A stretch of 64,000 nucleotides of DNA from Convolutriloba macropyga (Eukaryota): NCBI RefSeq assembly GCF_964194025.1, contig NC_134479.1:3286001-3350000 (forward strand), read 5' to 3'. The translations under genes and the position numbers were made by a program. Below the pieces are notes generated by a model. It saw only the letters and a program-made list of their open reading frames with translations. It ran no database searches and was not told where the DNA came from. Shown here piece after piece: positions 5,400-59,500 of this stretch (position 1 is the stretch's first letter; each line of letters starts with the position of its first letter).

Positions 5400-5949
5400 C
5401 TGTCAACAATGAAAACCCGTCCAAAATCAGGACCAAGTTTTACATTAAAGATATTTTGGGTTTGTTATTATTTTTTTCCATGTTTGCACAGTTGAAGTGG
5501 AATTATGCTCATTTTGTGTCCTAATTGGATTGTAATTGGATATGATTTTGAAATGTTGTCCAATTGCATTAACCATTCTATTTAGGCCCATTTCATACAT
5601 TTGGAGGCAAAATGTGACGTGATCAGTCTGAGCTTAGTAAAAATGCAGACTGGGAATACAATGATTTAATGTTTTCCGGATGATTTAATGAACACCTGAT
5701 TTAAATTTTACAAAATCCCAGTTATGAAGTTAAGATTGCAGAGGTTACTTCACACAATCATTTCAAACTCACATTAGGAAAGGCATAACGTTAATAAATA
5801 AGTTCAGAGCATTGGTACAAAAATTACAATTTAGAAAGGAATACCTAAAAATGAAAATATTTCATAGTTACTCCATAAATAAATCTGACAATATACGGCA
5901 CTGAGTTCCAAACCTACTCAAACGGGCACATACTAAAACTTCATGATTG

Positions 5950-7620
5950 GAATTTGAACAATTCTGCTTTTCTTTGCAGTCTTTCACGAGCTCAAGCAGA
6001 AGAAAACTATGTAAAGGAAATAAACAACAAGAAATTTGTTTCGACAGCTTTTTTAGATCTCTCCAAAGCTTTTGACTCTATCAGCCATGAAATTCTACAT
6101 TCCAAGCCAAAATATCTCGGGTTTAATGAAAATGCAATTCTTCTAATTAAACGCTTTACAAAGGGCCGAATACAGAAAACAATCGTAAACATAGTTGAAT
6201 TAGATTGGATTTCCCTTTATAAAAGTGTTCCTCAGGGGACTGTTTTTGGACCGCTATTGTTCACTTTATACCTAAACGATATCAAACAGATAAAGATATC
6301 CGAACATAATCTTTTACAATGTGCAGACGACACAGTCATTCTATGTTGTGCTCAGTCTGGAAAAAGCGTCGAAAGACTAGGTCTCTAAATACTTTGATTA
6401 ACATAAAATAAACTTAAATGCTAAAAAACCGGGTATTTAGTTTTTTGTCTCAAACATCGAAACCAAATAACTCAGAAGCAGCCAATCAAAGTTTAAAACA
6501 AAACTATTCAAGCTAAAACATCAGTGAAATATCTGGGTGTTTTTAGACCAGAATCTTTGTTTTCAAGAAGAGGTCAACAGCATATTGAAGAAAATGGCTT
6601 GTGGTATAAAAACTATCGGCCATTAAAAAAGGTTTGCCAATAAAAACACAGCCGGCAGATTGCCAGAAAATAGCCGCAATAGCTTCGTAGATCTGCAGTC
6701 TCAACAAAACAGTAAAAAAGACAGACCACAAAATACTCTTTCCATTGAAGGCTGAGATTTTATATTTTGATTAAGAATCTGTATAAGTTACTGCTGCCTC
6801 GATCAGCTGCTCTTAAATAACCTTCATTTAGAGTAACACATACCCATTTGACCTAAACTCTTTCAATTAAAGTAAATAAAAGTCAATTTCAAAGTCAGGA
6901 AGTCATTTTTGAGAGTGAGGTAAAAACTCGCTCCACTAAGAGCAAAAAAGGACGTCACGCACGCGTTTCAGTTGAAATTGCATGAACGAATGAACAAAAA
7001 TTGGCTGTGACGTCATATGGTCGTAACAAAAATCTTGAAGAAATAAATAAAAAAAAACCAAGAGAAGGCCAATAATAGCCTCAGCTATCGCTGTGCGGCT
7101 ATTAAGAATTTAACTTTTGAGTGCTCTAGTTCTTAGTCACCTCCATTATTCGGCTACTTTATTTAGCGGTATATCAAAAATTTTGATAATATCTTCAGAA
7201 AAACAACTAAGTTCAGCTGTTAAAGCATGCTGCGACAGACGCAAATATGATACTCCCAGTTAGTTTCTTTCTAAAATCCAAAATCATAGTTTATTTCAAC
7301 AAAATAAATCAAATCAAGATTGCTGCATACACAGAAACCTCGATTTTCCAAACTCTCAGATTATAAAACAAAAGCGTGCCGGTTTTTGGTACCACCCCTG
7401 TGCGGTCCAACTGCCAAATTTTCCAGAACTCAATTTTTCATTTGTGATTTATGGAACAATGTAATACTTAAATCAAATCTCAAATGCAACAATACCAGTC
7501 TGAAGGCTTTCAAGAAACGAATAAAAGCCCATTTTCTGGCCGAATTTAGGAAGGATTCAAAACAGATAGCGTACGGCAGACTTCCATGGAAGGATTTTAG
7601 ATTTGAACGCTGACTTATTT
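5950..7620 (+). mobile_element. Degenerate LINE (CR1/L2/Jockey-group) reverse transcriptase and 3' end, interrupted by an insertion
   Basis: Motifs FLDLSKAFDSISH, VPQGTVFGPLLF, ADDT and VKYLGV, with stops and frameshifts. Confidence 0.9.
6647..7103 (-). mobile_element. Helentron/DINE-1-like element inserted in the LINE
   Basis: Hairpin GGCAGATTGCC and perfect subterminal inverted repeats AATAGCCGCA/TGCGGCTATT. LINE coding sequence resumes on both sides with no obvious TSD. Confidence 0.8.
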
Positions 7621-12963: not shown

Positions 12964-13927
12964 CTGAAGCAACACAGACCACAAAATAAGTCCAAAAGTT
13001 AACAAAACAATTCTACTACATGGCTGTTGTTCAACGCTGGATCGCAGTAGAGATACAGCATAGAGTACAGTAAGCATAATGCTTCAAAATAATAATTAAA
13101 TTATTTCAAGCAGAGCAGCTTTAAATTTACTTGTTCAAATGCATTCCCTGTGTTAACTCCAAGCGAACACAACGATATCCGTTCTCAAGTGTCTCGTTCA
13201 ATTTAGGTTGTTGGCAAATCAAATTGAGTTGTCGACACAACCAAATGACATGCAAACACAATCACTGATTAGACATGGTCGTATATACGTCGACAACTTG
13301 ACTATTCTACTCTGTTGAAGTATAAACAGAAAAGACTTAAGATTTGATTCGCGTTTACGGATAATAAGTAATTTGATGATCTTGAAACACAAAAAATCAC
13401 GAAAATTTGTGGATTCTACACGTCTTGTATTACACAATCAACCCCTGTGAGTGAAGGCATCATTGAGTTGAATTGATATTGTCTTGTATCAAGCATAATT
13501 TCAGTATAGTCCGATAATCATATCAATCAACATTGACAGATCAGTTCAGTAATCAGACATATCAAAACATAGACTTTTTAATCTCTGGAAAAGAACCCAT
13601 CGGAGCAAGCGCATACCAGTTTCAAATATCAGAGACATTTGGTTACTAGGCGTTTGAAAACAGTGCAAACAATTTTTCAATGAATTACTAACAAGTAAAG
13701 AACAATGGAGTTTCATCAAGAAAAAAATTGATGGCCAAGAAATGGAGTGTCTCGTTATAGACAAACTAGTCAATGGTGAAAGAGTCAATGGTGAAAGAGA
13801 AGTAGAAATTGAACTTGATATTGCAAATAGTCTCAGAAGTTTTCAAAAATTAGGCTTATACAAAGGACAAAATGTGAGCGCTCCAAATAATTCCCGCATA
13901 GAAGTTTTGCTTCAGAACAGTCACACT

Positions 13928-14079
13928 AGTGGTATGAAATAGGGGGTCTGCCGCACACTTTTGACACATTTCAAAAATTTCAATAATTTGCCCGCGTGGG
14001 TTCGAATCCGGGTCGGAAAAAAGTTTTGGGAGAAATGTGTCAAAAAGTGTGCGGCAAACCCCCCCTATTTCTTACTACT
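13928..14079. mobile_element. 152-bp MITE with AGT(A/G)GT termini and CACACT TSD (copy 1)
   Basis: ~45-bp TIRs, CACACT at 13922-13927 and 14080-14085, and central GGGTTCGAATCC. Confidence 0.85.
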
Positions 14080-14243
14080 CACACTAAAGGAACTCTTAAG
14101 GAACTAACGGAACTCACTTAACAACAATAATTCTCAAAAATTAGGCTTATACAATATTTCAAAAATTAGGTTTATACGAAGGACAAAATGTGAGCGCTCC
14201 AAATATTTCTCGCATAGAAATTTTGCTTCAGAACAGTCACACT

Positions 14244-14396
14244 AGTAGTAAGAAATAGGGGGGTCTGCGCACACTTTTTGACACATTTCAAAAATTTCAA
14301 TGATTTGCCCGCGTGGGTTCGAATCCGGGTCGGAAAAAAAGTTTTGGGAGAAATGTGTCAAAAAGTGTGCGGCAGACCCCCCTATTTCTTAAAACT
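14244..14396. mobile_element. Second copy of the same MITE, duplicated together with flanking LINE DNA
   Basis: AGTAGTAAGAAATAGGGGGG TIR, the same CACACT flanks and the same ~85-bp left flank. Confidence 0.85.
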
Positions 14397-15034
14397 CACA
14401 CTAAAGGAACTCTATGATGCCATTGATTCACTTGACAACAATAAGTCTCCGGGTCCAGGCATTTTTAATGCTTGGGCACATAGTTGGGCTGAGCATGCAA
14501 ACATACAAAAAACCACGTGTCATACATTTATCTATATGACTTGAAAAATTAAAGGGGGTTTTGCTCTTAAGCCGCGTGGGACAATCCAATGGATGAGTAG
14601 TGATCCCCCACTATGAAACATCACTGCATCGCATATAATTTTAAAAACAAGGCACTATAGCTCTTTTAGAGCTGCGTCATGAGAAAAATAAACATAGACA
14701 TCACTGCATCGTATATAATTTTTAAGACAAAAAAACTAACTCTTTTAGAGCTGCGTCAAAAGAAGTAAATTTCTAGTCTCCCCTCCCACACTATGGCGCT
14801 GCAAGAACTATCAATGTCGGTCGGCCGTTTGGAACCACGGCACCCTCTGAGGCATATGATAGCGCTGCGCAGAAGAGCAAAATTGATTCTCGTGAGCATG
14901 TACGTTATTGCGTCCGACTATGATTTGTCTTTCTTATCGGCAATTTTGCTAGCTAGTTGTTTTATAGTGCGCGTTGCGGACGGTCCTGCGTCCCCATGCA
15001 GGAAAACACGAGCGGAACGAGTGGGTTAAAGATC

Positions 15035-17749: not shown

Positions 17750-19737
17750 GACAACCTGTTTGTTGAGGCCAAGGTAATTCAGGAACGTTTAGTGAAAATA
17801 AAAAGAAAACGAGAAATGGATGAATTCAAAGCCTTTGACAAACAAATGGAGTCTGGTAAGCTATTGAATGCTTTATGACGTCTTTCAGACGATAGAAACG
17901 GCGGTGTGCTATCAACATCTGATTAAGTGGTTATCAAAGAAAAAAAGTGCACCGTACTTGATCTTCTACAAGAAAAGCACCCATATTGTCAGAAAGCCGA
18001 TCTTAAATACGTAGAAACGAATCTGAGAAATCGGGATTTGCCTTTCCATTTTTGAAAATTAATAGTTCTAAAAAAACTCGCTGCAATAAAAACAAAGGGC
18101 GGCCATAGCCCATCCGGTCTTGATGCAGGCAACTGGAGACGACTTTTGACATCATACAACTCCTCCTCAATCGATCCCTGCAGAACAGTGTCCAAACTTA
18201 CAATCAGAGTTGTCATCGAAAAACAACGACATGCTTGCAGATCAAAATTTGATTCATAAATGGTATCCAAATGACAAAAAGACGGTAATGTGGCCGTTAG
18301 CCGTGGATCACTACAAATCGTGCTCGAGAAAATCGATGAAAATGGCTGTGCTTTTGTTTATAATGTGATCAAATGTCATCTCATTACAAAAACTGAGTTT
18401 GTTCAGAAGGCCAACAAAGTGTTTTATGATTAGATGTTGATGTTATTGAAGGTCATTGGGTTCTGGGTTCAGTTATTTCTTCTGATAAAAGTTGAAAAAA
18501 AGTCTATGAAATACTCTAACACTCTTGAGAAGCTGGCCAAACATAGTATGGTGCCCCCTTCAGAATGTGTGCAAATCTTTTACAAAGAGATTGCTACATA
18601 AATTGACATTTATTGCTAGGACTACTCCAAACTCGGGCAGTCTGCTGAGGGATGCCAAAAAAGTTGATAAAAAGTCGTATATCTTCAATGTTGAACCATC
18701 CCTCTTACAATAACAGATACTTGAAGGTTTTCTCTCTTCCGTTAAAGACAAGACGGTGGCCTAAGCATTCTTCTCCCTGCAGACTGGGCAAACGCATATA
18801 AAAGATCTATTTGGATTTGTGAGCCATTACACATTCATAACAATATAGATGCATCAGGAAAAAAATCGTTCAGAAAATCAGAAAAGAAGAACAAGAAGAA
18901 GCTCGAGCAAAAACGTTGGCAATCAGAGCTCTCATCAAAAAGAGGCAATTTCTCTAGATTTGGCAACAGAAAAATCAATATCATGCTGGCTAAACTCACG
19001 TCCATAGACAAAATATCATTTTGATTTCTTCAAGGGAGAGTTTAGAGATGGAATTGATCTTCGATATGGATGAGATCACAACAATTATTATCAACTTGCG
19101 CATGTGGAAAATTTTAATGTAGCGCATGCTCTACATTGTTCAAAAGGTGGCTATACGCACATAAGACACGATGACATTGGTGACTTTTTTCCCAACCTGC
19201 TCAATGAGGTCTGTGATGATGTCGAAGTAGATGCTTGTCTTCAGACGATGCAAGGAGAAACCTTCGCAAATAGAAATACCACTACTGATGACAACGCTCG
19301 ACTAGATATCAAAGCTAATGGCTTCTTTGATTCACGTTTCAGTAGAAAGTTCTTTGATGTAAAAGTGTTTAGTCCATATGCGAAGAGTGACGGAAGAAGC
19401 ATAGCGGATTCCTCTAAATACCACGAGTCCATCGAGAAGCTGAAATACGATCAAAAGAAATGGAAGTTGAAAAAAGCCACCTTCTGTCCCTTAATCTTCT
19501 CGTTTACAGGAGGATCTGGTCTGTCAGCATCAAAGGCCATACAGAGATTGGCTTCCAGGGTCAGCGACAAGAAGAAGATTCATATTTGGACGTGATCACG
19601 TACATAAGGACGAAAACATTTTTGCTCTTTTGCGTAGCTCCATACTCTGCCTCTGTGGCGCACGCTCCATGAGCTGGCTCCCTGCAGTAGAAACGTCAAT
19701 AGGGAGCATTGTAGCGGAAGGGAGGCTGATATGCTAA
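17750..19737 (+). mobile_element. Degenerate CRE-clade-like non-LTR retrotransposon (RT remnants and restriction-like endonuclease)
   Basis: PSGLDAGNWRRLL, Cys/His knuckle C...HALHCSKGG, RHD, ARLDI and FFDVKV. Many stops, frameshifts and apparent deletions. Confidence 0.8.
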
Positions 19738-28179: not shown

Positions 28180-29290
28180 CATCGGTTTTTAGAAATGAAA
28201 TTTTTGTTTTCTCGGGTAGGTTTTTACTCAGCATGATCAAAACTTCATTCCTCGAGCCATTCTGTGAAGTATCTTTTTCACTTCTTCGTCAGATTTTTGT
28301 TTGTTATCAATACCTACGCCAAGATACATCACACTAGTTGAATCTGCCACTTTGTTGTTGTCGACAATCAAAATGTTATTTGTTATTCCTTCCTGCTGCT
28401 GAATAATATAAACTCTGTCTTTTGTTTGTTCACCCTTAACTGAGACTTTGAACGAAATTCGACAATTTTAGAGATGTTATGTTCAAGTTTTTTTGACAGA
28501 GTTTCATCACTGTTGGGTGTAAAAAGAAAAGTTTCGTTTGCATTCTGCCCCACCGTACAATCCTCTTCTATAATCACTGCTAAATTGTTCACGCAATTGG
28601 TGAATAACATAGGACTTAAAATAGTACCCTGTGAAAGTCATCTTTTCAAAGCTATCCAGTCGGATTGAATTCCTTCTAGAAAAATTTTCTGCGTTCTTTT
28701 AATCAATAAATATCTATTAAATTGGTAGCGTGTTTGTCAAAGTCTTTTCTTGTCTCCGTTAAAGTATTTCGTGGTTTACAGAGTCAAAAACTTTTGAAAT
28801 ATCAGTAGTATACTAAAATGCACGTATTGTCACGGGGGGACGTCCCCACCCGTGACAAAACGTTATGCACGATTTGTCACGGGGGGACGTCCCCCCCGTG
28901 ACAATACGTGCATTTTAGTAAACTACTAATATCTGTAACCGTCTTCTTTTCTGTTGAACTCTAGTCTTATTTGTCACGTAGATTTTAAATTAGCATCAAT
29001 TGTTGAAAATTGTTTTCTATAACCCGACTGACTGGCGGACAGTAATTGTTCTCTATCAAAGAAATCTGTTATTTGAAAAAAGTTTTTCAAAAAGTTTTGA
29101 AAAAATGGAAGTGACAAAATTAGTTCTACTATTGAATGGGTTTTCGGGTTTTGATTTTTTGAAAGTGGAGTCTCACATTCTTCCGTCAGATGTCCAGGAA
29201 AACTTTCTTCTGTGATTACTCAGATAAAAAAGTGGTTGGATTGTAAAAACTTTTGATCGTAAAAAGTGGTTGGATCATAAAAACAGAGAA
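28180..29290 (-). mobile_element. Highly degenerate LINE RT fragment
   Basis: Remnants of DISKxFDSVNH, SQGTILSPMLF, KTEFILFS and YLGVGID. Confidence 0.7.
28804..28927. mobile_element. 124-bp palindromic MITE with AGTAGT termini and 6-bp TSD
   Basis: ~36-bp near-perfect TIRs and TSD AATATC at 28798-28803 and 28928-28933. It interrupts the LINE RT. Confidence 0.9.
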
Positions 29291-51300: not shown

Positions 51301-52603
51301 TAATTGAAATATTTGTTTCCAGAAAAAAAGTTAATTGACCGTTTATTAACTAGATATTGCCAACAACAAATGTCAGTAGGCTAGTGGATGACACACACGG
51401 TAATATAAAAGCCTCCAGAGTCTACCAGCTTGGTGTTTATTTTACTTTTATCAAAATTTCTGACAATAAATGAGACGTTTCACTGACTGCAGTCACTTAG
51501 AACTATAACTAGCCTTCGATTACCATGAAGACTAGTTGTTAGTAGTAATTTGATTCGTACCAGAGGACTAACGAATGAAGAAATGTTGATCATACAGTTT
51601 GATTAGCGATAACATAACGTTTTTTACCGATTAATAATGTAAATCGTGAAAATGGTAAATGCTCGATTTTGTTAGCCTTCCAATCATTTTAAGAGTCGTC
51701 CTATAGCATAGAAAACTCCTATTGATTTCATCAGCTAGCAGAAGTAAAATTTTGGGGTCTAGAAATTTTTGCCTTCCATCATTTTTCTCTCGGACATAAA
51801 CAGGATGTTTCATATCTACTTTACCATTGATAACGTAATTGAAACAGTTTCTTCCAGAAAACTGTTCATTGACCATTTGGTAACAAGATATTGCCCACAA
51901 CAAGTGTCACTAGGCTAGCCACAAACGGTAATATTTAAGCCTACACAGACTACCGGCTTGGTGTTTATATTACTTTTATCAAAAAATTCTGGCATTAAAT
52001 GAGACGTTTCACTGAATCCAGTCACATAGAACTATAATTAGCCTTATATCACCATGAAAACTAGTTGTTAGTAAAAAATTGAGTTATGTCAGACGACAAA
52101 CAAACGACGAAATGTTGATTATACAGTTTGATTAGCGTTAACATAATGTTTTCTACTGATTAATTATGTAAATCGTGAAAATTGTAAATGCTCAATTTTT
52201 TTTAGCCTTTCAATCCTTTTAAAAGTCGTTCTATAGCAGAAAAGCACTCCTTTTGATTTCATCAAATAGCAAAAAGTAAATTTTGGTGTCAAGATATTTT
52301 AGCCTTCATTAATTTTTTCTCTGGGGCCTAAACAGAATGTTTCATGGCTACTTTAACGTTGATAACAAAATTGTTTCCAAAAAAAGTTCATTGACCGTTT
52401 ATTAACAAGGTATTGCCCACAACAAGTGTCACTAGGCTACTAGGTGACCCAGATGGTAATGTTAAAGCCACCAGAGCCTACCAGCTTGGTGTTTATATTA
52501 GTTTTTTTCAAAATTTCTGGCAATGAATTTAGAAGTTTCAGACTCCAGTCACATAAAGCTATAATTAACGTTCAATTGCCGTAAAAATCAAATATTAGTA
52601 GTA
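42310..52603 (+). repeat. ~535-bp satellite array, forward arm (~20 diverged monomers)
   Basis: GGGCCTAAACAGA recurs near 42402, 42935, 45363, 45902, 46440, 46974, 47510, 48046, 48578, 49111, 50188, 50725, 51260 and 52324. Confidence 0.95.
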
Positions 52604-53356
52604 AGAGGAGCTCGGACAGAGAAATAACGGTCGCAAAAAAGTTTATCTTACAGTTTCATTCAACTGGTAGTCTTCACTGAACCGTCAAAGACTACACCGA
52701 GCTTCGTAGTTGTACTTGAATTTTTTGAACGAAAAGTGATGGCTGAGGTAAAAGGTTTTCTTTTTTGGCAGTAGCTTCTCCATTTCGGGTACTTCTTCCA
52801 TGTGTCCTAGTTTAATGAACTCCTGGATGAACTCGTTGTGACGTCTGTACAGATCAGGCTGTTTTTGAAGTCTAAGGAGGAGACTTCTAAATCTTCGTCG
52901 TGGTTGCTGCTGTGAATCTCCCAGTTCTCCAATTTCTTTTTTAAACGGCAGGTTTACAATAAAACTTCTTCATGGCTTCTTCGTGTGGTTGACTTGAAGT
53001 GTTCCAAGGTCAGATGTTTAGTTGCAGGCACTTCCCCGATTTCCCTAAAACACTGTAAATTGTCTTCTAATGGTGACACAAAGTAGGTTTGCAAACTGGA
53101 AGAATTGTAGGTTTGCACGTTTTCGCGTCCGATTACTAACCAAACGAATACTGAGAGTCGATAATCAACGGGGATGTTTGGTTCTTTATTTCGGTTGTTC
53201 CCATCCATAAAGTCCTCCAAGTGTCCAGCTCCAATGATCAGATCAACTTGGGCGGGCTTATTAAAGTCGGGATCAGCCAACTGTAGCTCCTTTGCTGTCT
53301 CCCAATTGTCTGTGTTGATGTACCGGGAGGGCAAATCGTTGGTAATTCGAAGCGTC
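52604..53356 (-). mobile_element. Bel/Pao LTR retrotransposon pol fragment (protease end to RT start), copy 1
   Basis: LADPDFNKPAQVDLIIGA, LPFKK...LGDS, EFIKLGHMEEV and TKL(R)VVFDGS. Frameshifted, with no LTRs seen. Confidence 0.9.
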
Positions 53357-53399
53357 AGTGATTATTGGTGTTTTTTTTGGTTGAAGGCAAAGGTCGACA

Positions 53400-54339
53400 A
53401 AACCGCTATTAGTTGAGACATTAATAAGTTTTTTTGTGGAAGCAACTGTTTCAATTACGTTATCACCGGTAAAGTAGATATGAATCATTTTGTTTAGGGT
53501 AAGAGAAAAAATGGATGAAGCAAACATTTTTTAGATCCCAAATTTTTACTCTTTGCTATGTGCTAACTTCAGTAGGAGAGTTTTCTCGACTATTATAAAG
53601 ATTGGAAGTTTAACAAAATGACCCTTTACGATCTTCACCGTTTACATAAATAATCATTAAAAAGCCTTATGTTATCGCCATTCAAACTGTATGGTCAACT
53701 TTACTGCTTCCTTTAGTCCCCTGATCTAGCTCAATTTACTATTAATAAGTAGTTATTATAGCAAATCGACGCCAATTATATTTCTATGTGACTAGAGCCA
53801 GTGAAACGTCTCAGTTATGGTGAGAAATTTTGGCAAAAAATAACATAAACACCCAGCTGGTAGACTCTGGAGGCTTCATTTCTACCATTCGAGGCACCTA
53901 ATCTTCTATTCAGACTTTTTTACGTAATATTTGGTTACTAAATGATTACTAAACCCTTTTTCTGGAAACAAAATTTCAATTTCGTTATCACCGAAAAAGT
54001 GGATATGAAACATAGTATTTAGGCCTGAGAGAAAAAAATGTTGAAGGCAAGAATTTCTAGAACGCACGATTTTACTTTTTGCTATTTGTTGAAATGAGTA
54101 GGAGTACTTTTTGTGCTATAGAACGACGTTTAAAAGGATTTGAAGGCTAACAAAATTGTCCATTTACAGTTTTCACTATTTACACAATTGTTCAGTGAAA
54201 AACGTTTTGTTATAGCTGATCAAACTTATGATAAACTTTTCTGCGTCCTTTAGTCCCATGGTTTAACTCAATTTAATACTCATAATTGGTTAATATGGCA
54301 ATTGATTGCTAATAATTTTTTTCACATGACAGAAGTCAG
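53400..54339 (-). repeat. Satellite, short reverse block
   Basis: Reverse-complement monomer motifs (GTGAAACGTCTCA, TTTAGGCC). Confidence 0.9.
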
Positions 54340-55785
54340 TTCCATTGCAGAAAAGCCCGCCTATTGAGATTAGCACAAATCAGAATGTAAAAAGTTGGAT
54401 CCAAAAAATTTTTTGCATTCGATCATTTTTTTTGGGCCTAAACAGATTGTTTAATATCTACTTTATCGGTGATACAGTAATTGAAACATTTGTTTCCAGA
54501 AAAAAGTTAATTGACCGTTTATTAACTAGATATTGCCAACAACAAATGTCACTAGGCTAGTGGATGACACACACGGTAATATAAAAGCCTCCAGAGTCTA
54601 CCAGCTTGGTGTTTATTTTACTTTTATCAAAATTTCTGACGTTAAATGAGACGTTTCACTGACTGCAGTCACTTAGAACTATAACTAGACTTCGATTACC
54701 ATGAAGACTAGTTGTTAGTAGTAAATTGATTTGTACCAGAGGACTAACGAATGAAGAAATGTTGATCATACAGTTTGATTAGCGATAACATAACGTTTTT
54801 TACCGATTAATAATGTAAATCGTGAAAATGGTAAATGCTCGATTTTGTTAGCCTTCCAATCATTTTAAGAGTCGTCTTATAGCATAGAAAACTCCTATTG
54901 ATTTCATCAGCTAGCAGAAGTAAAATTTTGGGGACTAGAAATTTTTGCCTTCCATCATTTTTCTCTCGGGCCTAAACAGGATGTTTCATATCTACTTTAC
55001 CATTGATAACGTAATTGAAACAGTTTCTTCCAGAAAAAGGTTCATTGACCGTTTGGTAACAAGATATTGCCCACAACAAGTGTCACTAGGCTAGCCACAA
55101 ACGGTAATATTTAAGCCTACACAGACTACCAGCTTGTTGTTTATATTATTTTTTATCAAAAATTCTGGCATTAAACGAGACGTTTCACTGACTCCAGTCA
55201 CATAGAACTATAATTAGCCTTTTATTACCATGAAGACTAGTTGTTAGTAAAAAATTGAGTTATGTCAGACGACAAACAAACGACCAAACGACGAAATGTT
55301 GATTATACAGTTTAATTAGCGTTAACATAATGTTTTCTACTGATTAATTATGTAAATCGTGAAAATTGTAAATGCTCAATTTTTTTAGCCTTTCAATACT
55401 TTTCAAAGTCGTTCTATAGCAGAAAAGCACTCCTTTTGATTTCATCAAAAAGCAAAAATTAAATTTTGGTGTCAAGATATTTTAGCCTTCAATCATTTTT
55501 TCTCTGGGGCCTAAAGAGAATGTTTCGTGTCTACTTTAACGTTGATAACAAAATTGTTTCCAAAAAACTCATTGACCGTTTATTAACAATATATAGCCCA
55601 CAACAAGTGTCACTAGGCTACTAGGTGACCCAGATGGTAATGTTAAAGCCTCCAGAGCCTACCAGCTTGGTGTTTATAATAGTTTTTTTCAAAATTTCTG
55701 GCATGAATTTAGAAGTTTCACAGACTCCAGTCACATAAAGCTATAATTAACGTTCAATTGCCGTAAAAATCAAATATAAGTAGTA
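54340..55785 (+). repeat. Satellite, short forward block (duplicate of ~51168-52603)
   Basis: Near-identical to 51168-52603, including shared deletions. Confidence 0.9.
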
Positions 55786-56545
55786 AGAGGAGCTCGGACA
55801 GAGAAATAACGGTCGCAAAAAAGTTTATCTTACAGTTTCATTCAACTGGTAGTCTTCACTGAACCGTCAAAGACTACACGCAGCTTCGTAGTTGTACTTG
55901 AATTTTTTGAACAAAAAGTGATGGCTGAGGTAAATGGTTTTCTCTTTTGGCAGTAGCTTCTCCATTTCGGGTACTTCTTCCATGTGTCCTAGTTTAATGA
56001 ACTCCTGGATGAACTCGTTGTGACGTCTGTACAGATCAGGCTGTTTTTGAAGTCTAAGGAGGAGACTTCTAAATCTTCGTCGTGGTTGCTGCTGTGAATC
56101 TCCCAGTTCTCCAATTTCTTTTTTAAACGGCAGGTTTACAATAAAACTTCTTCATGGCTTCTTCGTGTGGTTGACTTGAAGTGTTCCAAGGTCAGATGTT
56201 TAGTTGCAGGCACTTCCCCGATTTCCCTAAAACACTGTAAATTGTCTTCTAATGGTGACACAAAGTAGGTTTGCAGACTGGAAGAATTGTAGGTTTGCAA
56301 GTTTTCGCGTCCGATTACTAACCAAACGAATACTGAGAGTCGATAATCAACGGGGATGTTTGGTTCTTTAATTCGGTTGTTCCCAACCATCAAGTCCTCG
56401 TAGTGTCCAGCTCCAATGATCAGATCAAATTGGGCGGGTTTATTAAAGTCGGGATCAGCCAACTGTAGCTCCTTTGCTGTCTCCCAATTGTCTGTGTTAA
56501 TGTACCGGGAGGGCAAATCGTAGGTAATTCGACGCGTCAATCATA
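55786..56545 (-). mobile_element. Bel/Pao pol fragment, copy 2
   Basis: Same breakpoints and near-identical sequence to 52604-53356 at an offset of ~3182 bp. Confidence 0.9.
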
Positions 56546-56589
56546 ATTGGTGTTTTGTTTTTTGGTTGAAGGCAAAGGTCGACAAATCC

Positions 56590-59500
56590 GCTATTAGTTG
56601 AGACATTAATAAGTCTTTGTGGAAGCAACTGTTTAAATTACGTTATCACCGGTAAAGTAGATATGAATCATTCTGTTTAGGACAAGAGAAAAAATGGATG
56701 AAGCAAAAATTTTTTAGATCCCAAATTTTTACTCTTTGCTATGTGCTAACTTCAGTAGGAGGGTTTTCTGGACTATTATAAAGATTGGAAGTTTATCAAA
56801 ATGACCCTTTACGATCTTCACCGTTTACATAAATAATCAGTAAAAAGCCTTATGTTATCGACATTCAAACTGTATGATCAACTTTACTGCTTCCGTTAGT
56901 CCCCTGATCTAGCTCAATTTACTACTAATAAGTAGTTATTATAGCAAATCGACGCCAATTATATTTCTATGTGACTAGAGCCAGTGAAACGTCTCAGTTA
57001 TGGTGAGAAATTTCGGCAAAAAATAACATAAACACCCAGCTGGTAGACTCTGGAGGCTTCATTTCTACCATTCGAGGCACCTAATCTTCTATTCAGACTT
57101 TTTTACGTAATATTTGGTTACTAAATGATTACTAAACCCTTTTCTGGAAACAAAAGTTTCCATTTCGTTATCACCGATGAAGTGGAGATGAAACATAGTG
57201 TTTAGGCCTGAGAGAAAAAATGTTGAAGGCAAGAAATTCTAGAACGCACGATTTTACTTTGTGCTATTTGATGAAAGGAGTAGGAGTGCTTTTTTTGCTA
57301 TAGAACGGCGTTTAAAAGGATTTGAAGGCTAACAAAATTGTCCATTTACAGTTTTCACCCTTTACATTATAAATCAGTGAAAAACGTTTTGTTATCGCTG
57401 ATCAAACTTATGATAAACTTTTCTGCGTCCTTTAATCCCCTGGTCTAACTCATTTTAATACTCATAATTAGTTAATATGGCAATTGATTGCTAATTATTT
57501 TTTTCACATGACAGAAGTCAGTGAAGTTTCTCATTTAATTTGAGATATTTCGAAAAAAAACCGAGACAACAAGTTGGTAGTCTCTGGAGGCTTCAAAATT
57601 ACCGTTTGTGGCACCTACTGGCATAGTAACATTTTTTTTGGGCAGCTTTATGAAAAAAAATTAATTTATCTTTTTTGTGGAAACAACTGTTTCCATTACG
57701 TTATCACCGGTAAAGTAGTTATGAATCATTCTGTTTAGGGCAAGAGAAAAACTGATTGAAGCAAAAATTTTTCAGATCCCAAATTTTTACTCTTTGCTAT
57801 GTGCTAACCTCAGTAGGAGTGCCTTTCTGCAACAGAACGACTTTGAAAAAGATTGGAAGGCTAACAAAAGTGAACATTTACGAATTTCACCATTTTCAAA
57901 ACTATTAAGAATAAATGTAAAGTTATCGCTAATTAAAGTGTATGATCAACTGTCCTGCATCCGTTAGTCCCCTGGTCTAGCTCAATTTGCTTCTAGCAGT
58001 TGGCTATTACGGCAGTTGAAGGTCATTTATAGTTTTATGTGACTGGAGTCAGCAAAACGTCTCATTTATTGCAAGAAATTTCGGAAAAAATAACATAAAT
58101 ACCAATCTGGTAGTCTCTGGAGGTTTTAACGTTACTGTTTGTAGTACCTACTGGCCTGGTCACAAATTTTACGGGCAATATTTTGATAATAAGTGATTAA
58201 AAAACCTTTTTTCTTGAAACAAATGTTTTGATTACGTTGTCAGAGGTAAACTAGATATGAAATATTGAGCTTAGGCTCAAGTGAAAAAATGATTGAAAGC
58301 AAAACTTTCTTTGACCTCAAATTTTTGCTTATTTCTATGTGCTACGCTCAGTAGGATCGCTTTTCATCTACATAGTGACATTTAAAAGGATTGGAAGGTT
58401 ACAAAATTGACCATTTTATGATGTTCACCAATTACATAATTAATCAGTAAAATAGGCTATGTTATCGCTAATCAAACTGTATGATCAACTGTATGATCAA
58501 CATAATAGTTTGTTGTTATAGCAATTGAACCTTTTTTGTAGTTTTATGTGACTGGAGTCAGTGAAACGTCTCATTTTTTGCGAGAAATTTCGAAAAAAAA
58601 AATCAACATAAACAGAAAGCTCGTAGTCTCTGGAGGCTTTAATGTCACCGTTTGTGGCACCTTCTAGCCGTCACTAGTCACGCTTCTTGTAGGCACGTTA
58701 TGACCGCTGATTTAAATATGAAACATTCTGTTAGGGCCCGAGAGAATGTTAGAAGGTAAAAAATATTTAAATTTTAGCTATGTGTTAAACTTAGTAGGAG
58801 TGCTTCTTTGCCATAGAACAAGCTATAAAGTGATTGGAAGCCTAACAAATATGACCATTTACGATTTTCACCATTTTCATAAATAATTAGTGGAAAACTA
58901 TAATTAGTTATATTATGGCTAATTAAACTGTATGATCAACTCTTCTGCGTTCGTTGGTCTTCTGGTCTAGCTTATTTCAACTACTACTGTTTTTGTTTTT
59001 ATGGCAATTGGTCGCTAACTATAGTTTATGTGACTGGACACAGTTAAAAGTCTCATTTAAGGCCAAAAATTATGATAAAAAAGTGAAATAAACAGTAAAA
59101 TAAGTAAAATAAGTAAAAAAGTAAAGTTAACAGTTAGTTGTAAGGCAATTGAACGCTGATTATGGTTCTATGTGACTGGACTCAGTGAAACGTCTCACTT
59201 AATGTCATAATTTTTGAAAAAGTAAAGTGAACAACAAGCTGGTAGTCTCGGGAGGCTTTAATATTGCCGCTTCTGGCACCCAATTGCCTGGTCAGACTTA
59301 TTGTAGGCACTATATAATAAACAATTAATAAAACTTTAATAAAAGGTCACATTTGTTGTAGGCAATATCTTGTTAATCAACTATTGATAAACTTTTTTCT
59401 GGCAACAAGTGTTTCAATAACGTTATCACTGGTAAGGTAGTTACCAAACATTCTGTTTAGGATCGAGAGAAAAGTGATTGAAGCCAAAAATATTGTGGAT

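What the first reader, a model, noticed from the sequence alone, without database searches (positions are those of the whole stretch)
28798..28933. Miniature element with Maverick/Polinton-type ends
Seen: 124 bp, almost wholly palindromic (internal GTCACGGGGGGACGTCCCC modules), starting AGTAGT and ending ACTACT, with an unambiguous 6-bp TSD (AATATC). Known: AGT-repeat termini with 6-bp TSDs characterise Mavericks/Polintons, which are normally 15-20-kb virus-like elements using a retroviral-type integrase. Inference: with the 13928/14244 element, this suggests ~120-150-bp MITE families mobilised in trans by a Maverick integrase, far smaller than typical derivatives.
Basis: partly seen in the sequence, partly recalled or inferred. 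Interest (0 to 1): 0.7.

Follow-up and report, generated by a model that had tools for sequence, protein, structure and literature searches.

The report
Ends-only remnant of a Maverick transposon
This 124-bp insertion is the two tips of a 13.5-kb virus-like Maverick transposon joined together, one of at least 16 such one-off remnants in this animal genome, likely left behind when the inside of a full element was deleted in place rather than spread as a small mobile family.

Summary
The element is the left 44 nt plus the right ~92 nt of a ~13.5-kb Maverick family in the same genome. They are fused at a 12-bp palindrome (GGGGACGTCCCC) that both TIRs carry, so it acts as a direct repeat across the element. 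The parents encode integrase, A32 ATPase, adenain and a double-jelly-roll capsid, have 6-bp TSDs (8 of 8), and lack pPolB. The 124-bp form is single-copy. Fifteen more ends-only loci (71-318 bp) from other Maverick end types were found, including 13928/14244. Each has its own TSD and junction, and none is dispersed to a second target site. So the Maverick origin is supported but the trans-mobilised MITE family is not. Most likely these are recurrent collapse products, like Tn10 nearly-precise-excision remnants or aborted gap repair. The rival is defective mini-replicons inserted once each by the integrase. My searches found no paper on such remnants for Mavericks; the scan's earlier notes cover only 1-6-kb mini-Mavericks in other genomes.

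The parts
28798..28803 (+). Left 6-bp target-site duplication AATATC
   Evidence: empty allele keeps one copy
28804..28927 (.). 124-bp ends-only Maverick remnant (family A ends)
28804..28847 (+). Left arm: tip of a parent TIR up to the centre of palindromic module 1
   Evidence: exact match to parent ends, apart from G/C-run length, in 6 of 7 ends tested
28836..28847 (.). Junction: 12-bp perfect palindrome GGGGACGTCCCC shared by module 1 of one end and module 2 of the other end
   Evidence: overlap 12 in 6 of 7 parent ends; the 7th has a private change; junction 34-mer in 4 of 4 runs
28836..28927 (-). Right arm: tip of the opposite TIR (half of module 2, spacer, module 1, terminus); one substitution at 28921
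   Evidence: (1 mismatch to 14 of 25 parent ends, 2-3 to the rest)
28876..28902 (.). Second palindromic module (module 1 of the right end)
28928..28933 (+). Right 6-bp target-site duplication AATATC
13928..14079 (.). 152-bp ends-only remnant with family B ends (pPolB-bearing Mavericks), TSD CACACT; first copy of a local tandem duplication
14244..14396 (.). 153-bp second copy of the same remnant (94% identical, same TSD and flanks); arms about 46 + 107 nt of parent ends

Best explanation
The element is the two tips of a ~13.5-kb Maverick joined at a 12-bp palindrome, and it likely formed in place when the interior of an integrated copy was deleted, leaving the original 6-bp target duplication. 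Shown: the arms map to the two ends of family A Mavericks. Each TIR carries two or three self-complementary modules, so the same 12-mer reads as a direct repeat at both ends. The site has an empty allele, and the 124-bp form is single-copy. Fifteen more ends-only loci exist, each with its own junction and TSD. Inferred: the full element was inserted first by its retroviral-type integrase. The two ends were then brought together, either by TIR pairing on a replicating strand or by an integrase cut followed by aborted gap repair. Host synthesis or end joining jumped between short repeats near the tips: 12 bp here, 0-9 bp or a short filler in other loci. The remnant is then probably inert. It works like a Tn10 nearly-precise-excision remnant or a solo LTR, not like an amplifying MITE.
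For: Arms and 12-bp overlap. Parent pairs 11-27 kb apart (34 of 36 pairs), 6-bp TSD in 8 of 8 fetched pairs, INT/ATPase/protease, capsid fold. Single copy: only the window copy aligned over 1-124 among 40 scored of 271 candidates. Junction patterns found this locus alone, or this locus, one fold-back end and two unrelated matches against 6 control matches. No further mini among 39 unpaired ends. 16 short loci have 16 different target sites (11 perfect TSDs, 3 with one mismatch, 2 with two) and different arm lengths. Of the other 15 loci, 7 join with 0-9 nt overlap, 2 with 1-7 nt filler, and 6 have 18-197 nt not mapped. Family B2 parents have unlike left and right ends, and at least 3 of 5 B2 minis hold one of each, so they come from two ends and not from one end folding back. 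Family A itself spread without pPolB, so defective elements can be moved in this genome, yet no mini junction has moved to a second site.
Against: No full-length allele at this site was seen; the only other allele is empty, which fits insertion of a pre-formed mini equally well. No filler copied from host flanks was found, so nothing ties the join to the chromosomal site. Remnants are far smaller than uniform random deletion predicts (P of under 320 bp about 0.0005), which needs an end-biased process or better survival of tiny alleles. Minis seem more frequent for end types with short TIRs (15 loci; B TIRs about 45-130 bp) than for family A with 1.3-1.9-kb TIRs (1 locus), which argues against TIR stem pairing as the general cause. 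Fold-back structures at one full-length end and inside one mini (L149) point to polymerase template switching, which could occur in the free replicating form.
Confidence: 0.58

Rival explanations
1. Defective mini-replicon inserted once. During protein-primed replication of a free Maverick, the polymerase switched template at the palindromic module and made an ends-only molecule. It kept both origins and integrase sites, and the integrase inserted it with a new 6-bp TSD.
For: Both ends are intact with a perfect TSD, and the only other allele is empty. The size gap favours tiny products. A template-switch fold-back at the same module occurs at a full-length end. pPolB-less family A shows that trans supply works, and a relative with nearly the same first ~120 bp carries pPolB sequence.
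Against: No junction recurs at a second target site among 16 loci, although a replicating mini should be amplified. Some minis keep only about 15-25 nt of one end, short for a replication origin (own knowledge of adenovirus-type origins). Intermediate deletions (2.2 and 4.6 kb) and one-ended copies show that integrated copies do decay in place.
Confidence: 0.33
2. A true MITE family, young or low-copy, mobilised repeatedly by a Maverick integrase; the other copies were missed or segregate in other animals.
For: Small, TIR-bounded, 6-bp TSD, polymorphic insertion. MITEs do arise by microhomology-mediated miniaturisation (PMC3814204, passages). The genome search scored only 40 of 271 candidates, and 34 one-mismatch termini were not listed.
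Against: Whole-genome exact-anchor junction scans found only this locus. The junction 34-mer is at single-haplotype depth in 4 of 4 runs. All 16 short loci differ.
Confidence: 0.06
3. Site-specific cut and rejoin at the palindrome by an element-encoded nuclease: the 201-aa ORF next to the protease has an H-x-H motif like HUH nickases.
For: The junction sits at the centre of a hairpin module. His46, His58 and His60 are conserved in at least 90% of 39 aligned homologues. Family A lacks pPolB.
Against: No PDB match for either profile. Pfam gave 1 of 39 members a Rep_OBD hit at E 0.079 only. No catalytic tyrosine is invariant. The gene also sits beside pPolB sequence in a relative, so it does not replace the polymerase. 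The other 15 minis have unrelated junctions.
Confidence: 0.03

Closest known systems
Mavericks/Polintons of animals (class Polintoviricetes), (AGT)2//(ACT)2 type; PMC8097293 and PMC10748475, passages read
   Same: Terminal motif, 6-bp TSD, long TIRs, parent size; parents encode rve integrase, A32 ATPase, adenain and a double-jelly-roll capsid.
   Different: The element has no genes and is about 1% of parent length. Its parent family lacks pPolB in all 7 fully fetched copies and one partly fetched copy. pPolB-less copies that stay mobile were reported in butterflies (bioRxiv 10.1101/2025.02.07.637071, passages), there in a few cargo-carrying copies.
Tn10 nearly precise excision (PMC12524634, passages; primary papers not seen, only cited in a reference list)
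   Same: Deletion between short direct repeats inside long inverted ends, by copy choice. That the repeats come from a palindrome in the ends and that a ~50-bp remnant stays between the target repeats is recalled, not read.
   Different: Bacterial composite transposon; here a eukaryotic virus-like element, and in-place formation is inferred, not observed.
MITEs born by abortive gap repair and microhomology joining, e.g. Gnome/Elf/Goblin from Ozma (PMC3814204, passages)
   Same: Ends of an autonomous element joined at microhomologies, several independent junctions from one parent, occasional template switching.
   Different: Those became amplified families of a cut-and-paste transposase. Here every junction is single-locus, and excision of Mavericks is only a model (described second-hand in PMC4046053, passage).
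Casposon solo-TIRs (PMC4779613, passages) and solo LTRs
   Same: Short remnants at the insertion site that arise repeatedly by decay of a large self-synthesising or retroviral element.
   Different: A solo-TIR keeps one end; these keep both tips in inverted orientation and both TSD copies.

Membership tests
Maverick/Polinton (parent family A and its ends) | (AGT)2//(ACT)2 termini | tested here: met
   motif as in PMC8097293
Maverick/Polinton (parent family A and its ends) | 6-bp TSD | tested here: met
   8 of 8 fetched pairs plus a 4.6-kb copy; one further pair has no TSD and inverted-duplicate flanks
Maverick/Polinton (parent family A and its ends) | Long TIRs and 13-25-kb length | tested here: met
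   TIR alignments 1.3-1.9 kb in 5 of 7, broken into shorter blocks in 2 of 7; 34 of 36 pairs are 11-27 kb
Maverick/Polinton (parent family A and its ends) | Retroviral-type integrase | tested here: met
   Pfam rve E 9.6e-10; present in 7 of 7 large copies
Maverick/Polinton (parent family A and its ends) | A32 ATPase and adenain protease | tested here: met
   Pox_A32 E 1.2e-5, Peptidase_C5 E 3.1e-8
Maverick/Polinton (parent family A and its ends) | Double-jelly-roll major capsid protein | tested here: met
   model pLDDT 82.8; top folds are PBCV-1, Sputnik and mavirus capsids, E about 1e-12
Maverick/Polinton (parent family A and its ends) | Minor capsid (penton) protein | not tested
   a 290-aa ORF between integrase and capsid genes is a candidate by position only; no Pfam hit
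Maverick/Polinton, autonomous | Protein-primed PolB in the element | tested here: not met
   no tblastn hit and no profile domain better than E 0.5 in 16 family A stretches, against E 1e-9 to 1e-61 in 5 of 5 family B elements. Family A is a pPolB-less Maverick derivative; the mini has no genes.
MITE | Small, non-coding, TIR-bounded with TSD | tested here: met
MITE | Many homogeneous copies of the same short form at different target sites | tested here: not met
   single copy; 16 loci, 16 junctions
MITE | Mobilised in trans as the short form | not testable with these tools
   an empty allele fits either order of events
Nearly-precise-excision-type remnant (works like) | Join at a short direct repeat inside the inverted ends with target repeats kept | tested here: met
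   12-bp palindrome, TSD intact
Nearly-precise-excision-type remnant (works like) | Formed in place from a full-length copy | tested here: inconclusive
   no full-length allele seen in contigs of at most 2 samples; no host-templated filler

The most novel reading that the evidence does not exclude
The 16 ends-only loci are fossil excision scars: Mavericks are cut out of animal chromosomes by their own integrase, and the donor gap is refilled from both ends by repair synthesis that aborts after 20-200 nt and joins at microhomologies. They would be the first genomic evidence for the excision step of the Maverick life cycle, which has only been modelled, and the raw material from which Maverick MITEs could be born.
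Probability: 0.3. Interest if true: 0.72.

Novelty: new variant of a known kind. Interest (0 to 1): 0.47.

Why it matters
How Mavericks leave the chromosome is unobserved: excision is a model, and no virions have been seen (bioRxiv 10.64898/2026.06.19.733378, passage). A recurring class of 70-320-bp two-ended remnants with intact TSDs gives a purely genomic test. If full-length and remnant alleles share a site, Mavericks collapse or excise in place; if not, defective mini-genomes are integrated, as with viruses. The remnants also mark past insertions that gene-based surveys miss, and they would be mis-annotated as MITEs. Separately, a whole multi-copy Maverick family here keeps the virion and integrase genes but has no polymerase, so it likely depends on relatives. 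Ends-only derivatives are ordinary for other transposons, which caps the surprise.

Tried and rejected
1. MITE family: searched by DNA and by junction patterns; only this locus and one fold-back end were found. The C5 hit that looked like an 82-bp mini is the end of an 11-kb element with an inverted copy of its own tip.
2. Assembly artefact: not supported by the junction 34-mer and the empty allele in run contigs.
3. Single-end fold-back as the general origin: rejected for B2 minis, which hold unlike left and right ends. It cannot be excluded for the window element, whose parent ends are alike.
4. Host-templated filler as proof of in-place repair: none above chance in 6 loci with unmapped interiors; the one strong hit was the locus's own tandem copy.
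5. Allelic haplotig with a full element: the right flank is a dispersed repeat, with no allelic copy among 40 scored of 272 candidates.
6. HUH/Rep role of the 201-aa ORF: motif only; PDB and Pfam gave no support; no fold was run for it.
7. Single-sequence fold of the capsid ORF failed (pLDDT 30.7), and its PDB sequence search gave nothing useful; the alignment-based fold worked.
8. The protein atlas gave no result.
9. Candidates dropped before the count of 16: L144 (left end not a terminus) and L131, L135, L140, L146, L162, L106 (3-6 TSD mismatches).
10. Literature: searches found no paper on 100-300-bp Maverick derivatives. Kapitonov and Jurka 2006 is not held, and Pritham 2007 and Repbase were not seen, so short non-autonomous Polintons may be recorded there. 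No supplements were read.

Full report
OBSERVATION. The sequence is as described. A 124-bp element at 28804-28927 begins AGTAGT, ends ACTACT and is flanked by AATATC on both sides; its terminal 30 nt match at 29 of 30. It folds as one hairpin at -64 kcal/mol, z -16.4. Contigs from 3 of 4 public runs carry an allele that skips exactly 130 bp, so the insertion is polymorphic and the TSD is 6 bp. A 34-mer over the internal junction occurs in 4 of 4 runs at about the depth of one haplotype. These runs are at most two samples of one study and may include the assembly's source, so they check the assembly but say nothing about the population.

HOST. G000 is a 1.18-Gb eukaryotic assembly, rich in pPolB genes (3891 first-look candidates, 77 matches among 91 scored). 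The only named homologues of the capsid protein are from the acoel Convolutriloba macropyga, so the host is likely an acoel worm.

PARENT FAMILY. In the genome search only the window copy aligned over all 124 nt; the other scored hits (40 of 271 candidates) covered at most about 110 nt. These hits are tips of large elements. From 113 termini collected inverted pairs formed: one of 124 bp, one of 2.2 kb and 34 of 11-27 kb; 41 stayed unpaired. All 8 pairs fetched have a perfect 6-bp TSD, and TIR alignments run 1.3-1.9 kb in 5 of 7 large copies. One further pair has no TSD and 97%-identical inverted flanks. The large copies share one gene order: 189-, 143-, 209- and 100-aa ORFs, ATPase, integrase, 290- and 132-aa ORFs, capsid, protease, 201-aa ORF. 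Pfam gives rve, Pox_A32 and Peptidase_C5. The capsid ORF folds at pLDDT 82.8 and matches PBCV-1, Sputnik and mavirus capsids. No pPolB was found in 7 fully fetched copies or one partly fetched copy, by tblastn or by a profile that finds it in 5 of 5 family B elements. Family A is thus a pPolB-less Maverick derivative that spread with its own TSDs. A relative with nearly the same first ~120 bp carries pPolB sequence within 2.4 kb of its end.

ANATOMY OF THE MINI. Each parent TIR begins with a terminus and two or three palindromic GTCAC-Gn-ACGT-Cn-GTGAC modules, about 47 bp apart. The mini reads as the left tip up to the centre of module 1, then the opposite end from the centre of module 2 outward. 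The two arms overlap in exactly GGGGACGTCCCC in 6 of 7 parent ends tested; the seventh has a private change. Because this 12-mer is its own reverse complement, it is a direct repeat across an element with inverted ends, and a jump between the two copies removes everything between them. The right arm differs from 14 of 25 parent ends by one base and from the rest by 2-3, ignoring G/C-run length, so the event is young.

COPY NUMBER. An exact-anchor scan for two-module minis found only this locus. The one-module scan found only a full-length end with a fold-back duplication of its tip. A looser head-to-head scan found these two plus two unrelated sites, against 6 control matches. Of the 41 unpaired ends, 39 were read inward for up to 10 kb: one 4,570-bp TSD-bounded copy, several truncated or diverged copies, and no further mini. 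Thirty-four one-mismatch termini were not listed and were only partly recovered, so a diverged mini could have been missed.

THE 13928/14244 ELEMENT AND OTHER MINIS. These are one insertion duplicated in tandem (same TSD and flanks, 94% identical). Their ends belong to family B, whose large members carry pPolB (5 of 5) and 6-bp TSDs (3 perfect, one with one mismatch, one with two). Following these and a third end type gave 16 ends-only loci in all, 71-318 bp, with 11 perfect TSDs, 3 with one mismatch and 2 with two. Large parents of the third end type were not fetched, so its Maverick origin rests on end similarity. Loci were chosen from search hits, so this is a lower bound and not a census. 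All-against-all comparison of the first 13 showed a shared junction only within local tandem pairs; the three later loci have other arm lengths. Of the 15 loci besides the window element, 7 join with 0-9 nt overlap, 2 with 1-7 nt filler, and 6 contain 18-197 nt that could not be mapped. B2 parents have unlike ends, and at least 3 of 5 B2 minis contain one of each, so two ends were joined. Among the exact-terminus pairs listed there are 7 of 13-27 kb, 2 under 200 bp and none between. Uniform random deletion would leave under 320 bp with probability about 0.0005, though longer survival of tiny alleles could contribute.

MECHANISM. Best reading (0.58): collapse in place of an integrated element between short repeats near its tips, by replication slippage across paired ends or by aborted gap repair after an integrase cut. 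It rests on unique junctions, microhomologies, the direct-repeat geometry and the lack of dispersal in a genome where defective Mavericks do spread. Against it: no full-length allele, no host-templated filler, and more minis for short-TIR than for long-TIR families. Main rival (0.33): template switching in the free replicating form, then one integrase-made insertion; the fold-back structures fit this. A true MITE family (0.06) and a Rep-type site-specific join (0.03) are poorly supported. The 201-aa ORF has conserved histidines in an H-x-H pattern but no database support, and it coexists with pPolB in a relative.

COMPARISON. Termini, TSD and gene set match published Mavericks (PMC8097293, PMC10748475, PMC4028283: passages). 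Mobile pPolB-less polintons are described in butterflies (bioRxiv 10.1101/2025.02.07.637071: passages), and replacement of pPolB by helicases in group 2 elements (bioRxiv 10.64898/2026.06.19.733378: passages). The remnant works like Tn10 nearly precise excision (PMC12524634: passages; geometry and remnant size recalled), like MITE birth by abortive gap repair (PMC3814204: passages), and loosely like casposon solo-TIRs (PMC4779613: passages). An anole survey noted an apparent absence of non-autonomous Polintons (PMC3014272: passages). Passages of PMC8504770, PMC4405056 and PMC4046053 were also read; the last restates the excision model. Eight searches found no report of 100-300-bp Maverick derivatives. 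The two founding papers and Repbase were not seen, and no supplements were read. Earlier notes of this scan describe 1-6-kb mini-Mavericks in other genomes and other Mavericks in this one, but not this class; they are unchecked leads.

VERDICT. The feature is real, and its Maverick origin is shown. It is not an amplified MITE family but one of a recurring class of one-off ends-only remnants: a new variant of a known kind. Interest 0.47; 0.72 if they prove to be excision scars (probability 0.3).

Noticed in passing
L030-L044, L103 (family A parents): A multi-copy Maverick family (about 60 or more copies, from 134 termini) that keeps integrase, ATPase, protease and capsid genes but has no pPolB in any copy fetched, each with its own 6-bp TSD.
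   Followed up: yes
L180 (G000:C8:63946400-63956350): Element with nearly the same first ~120 bp as family A, carrying pPolB sequence followed by homologues of the 189- and 201-aa ORFs, protease and capsid; a candidate ancestral or helper lineage.
   Followed up: partly
L045:1485-1566: End of an 11-kb family A copy with an inverted duplicate of its own tip, a template-switch product at the palindromic module.
   Followed up: yes
L039:2759-3361 and homologues: 201-aa ORF with conserved His46, Cys52, His58, His60 and Cys84; HUH-like by motif only; 310 relatives in the representative library, no Pfam or PDB support.
   Followed up: partly
L030:3953-4579: 209-aa ORF without a Pfam hit; its length equals that of a TBP-like gene noted earlier in this genome (e1-8605585). 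Identity not tested.
   Followed up: no
window 13840-14410; L084; L145: 3 of 16 mini loci sit in local tandem duplications that include flanking DNA (units about 316, 297 and 213 bp), which seems frequent; unexplained.
   Followed up: partly
L013 and L014 (G000:C12, 14.8 kb apart): Terminus pair without TSD whose outer flanks are 97% identical over 503 bp in inverted orientation; likely an inverted duplication involving one element end.
   Followed up: partly
L032:3600-7900: LTR-retrotransposon-type insertion (RVT_1, RNase H, integrase with zinc-binding domain) inside one family A copy, accounting for its 18.5-kb length.
   Followed up: partly
L149:222-539: 318-bp mini with a long internal fold-back palindrome.
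   Followed up: partly
window 28933-29216: The right flank of the element is itself a dispersed repeat (272 candidates, about 76% identity).
   Followed up: no
window 5879-6388 and 19074-19595: Open frames that look like fragments of non-LTR retrotransposon proteins (reverse transcriptase motifs; C-terminal nuclease region), judged from recalled motifs only.
   Followed up: no
window 51900-57100: Dense cluster of 70-80% inverted repeats of 90-280 bp.
   Followed up: no
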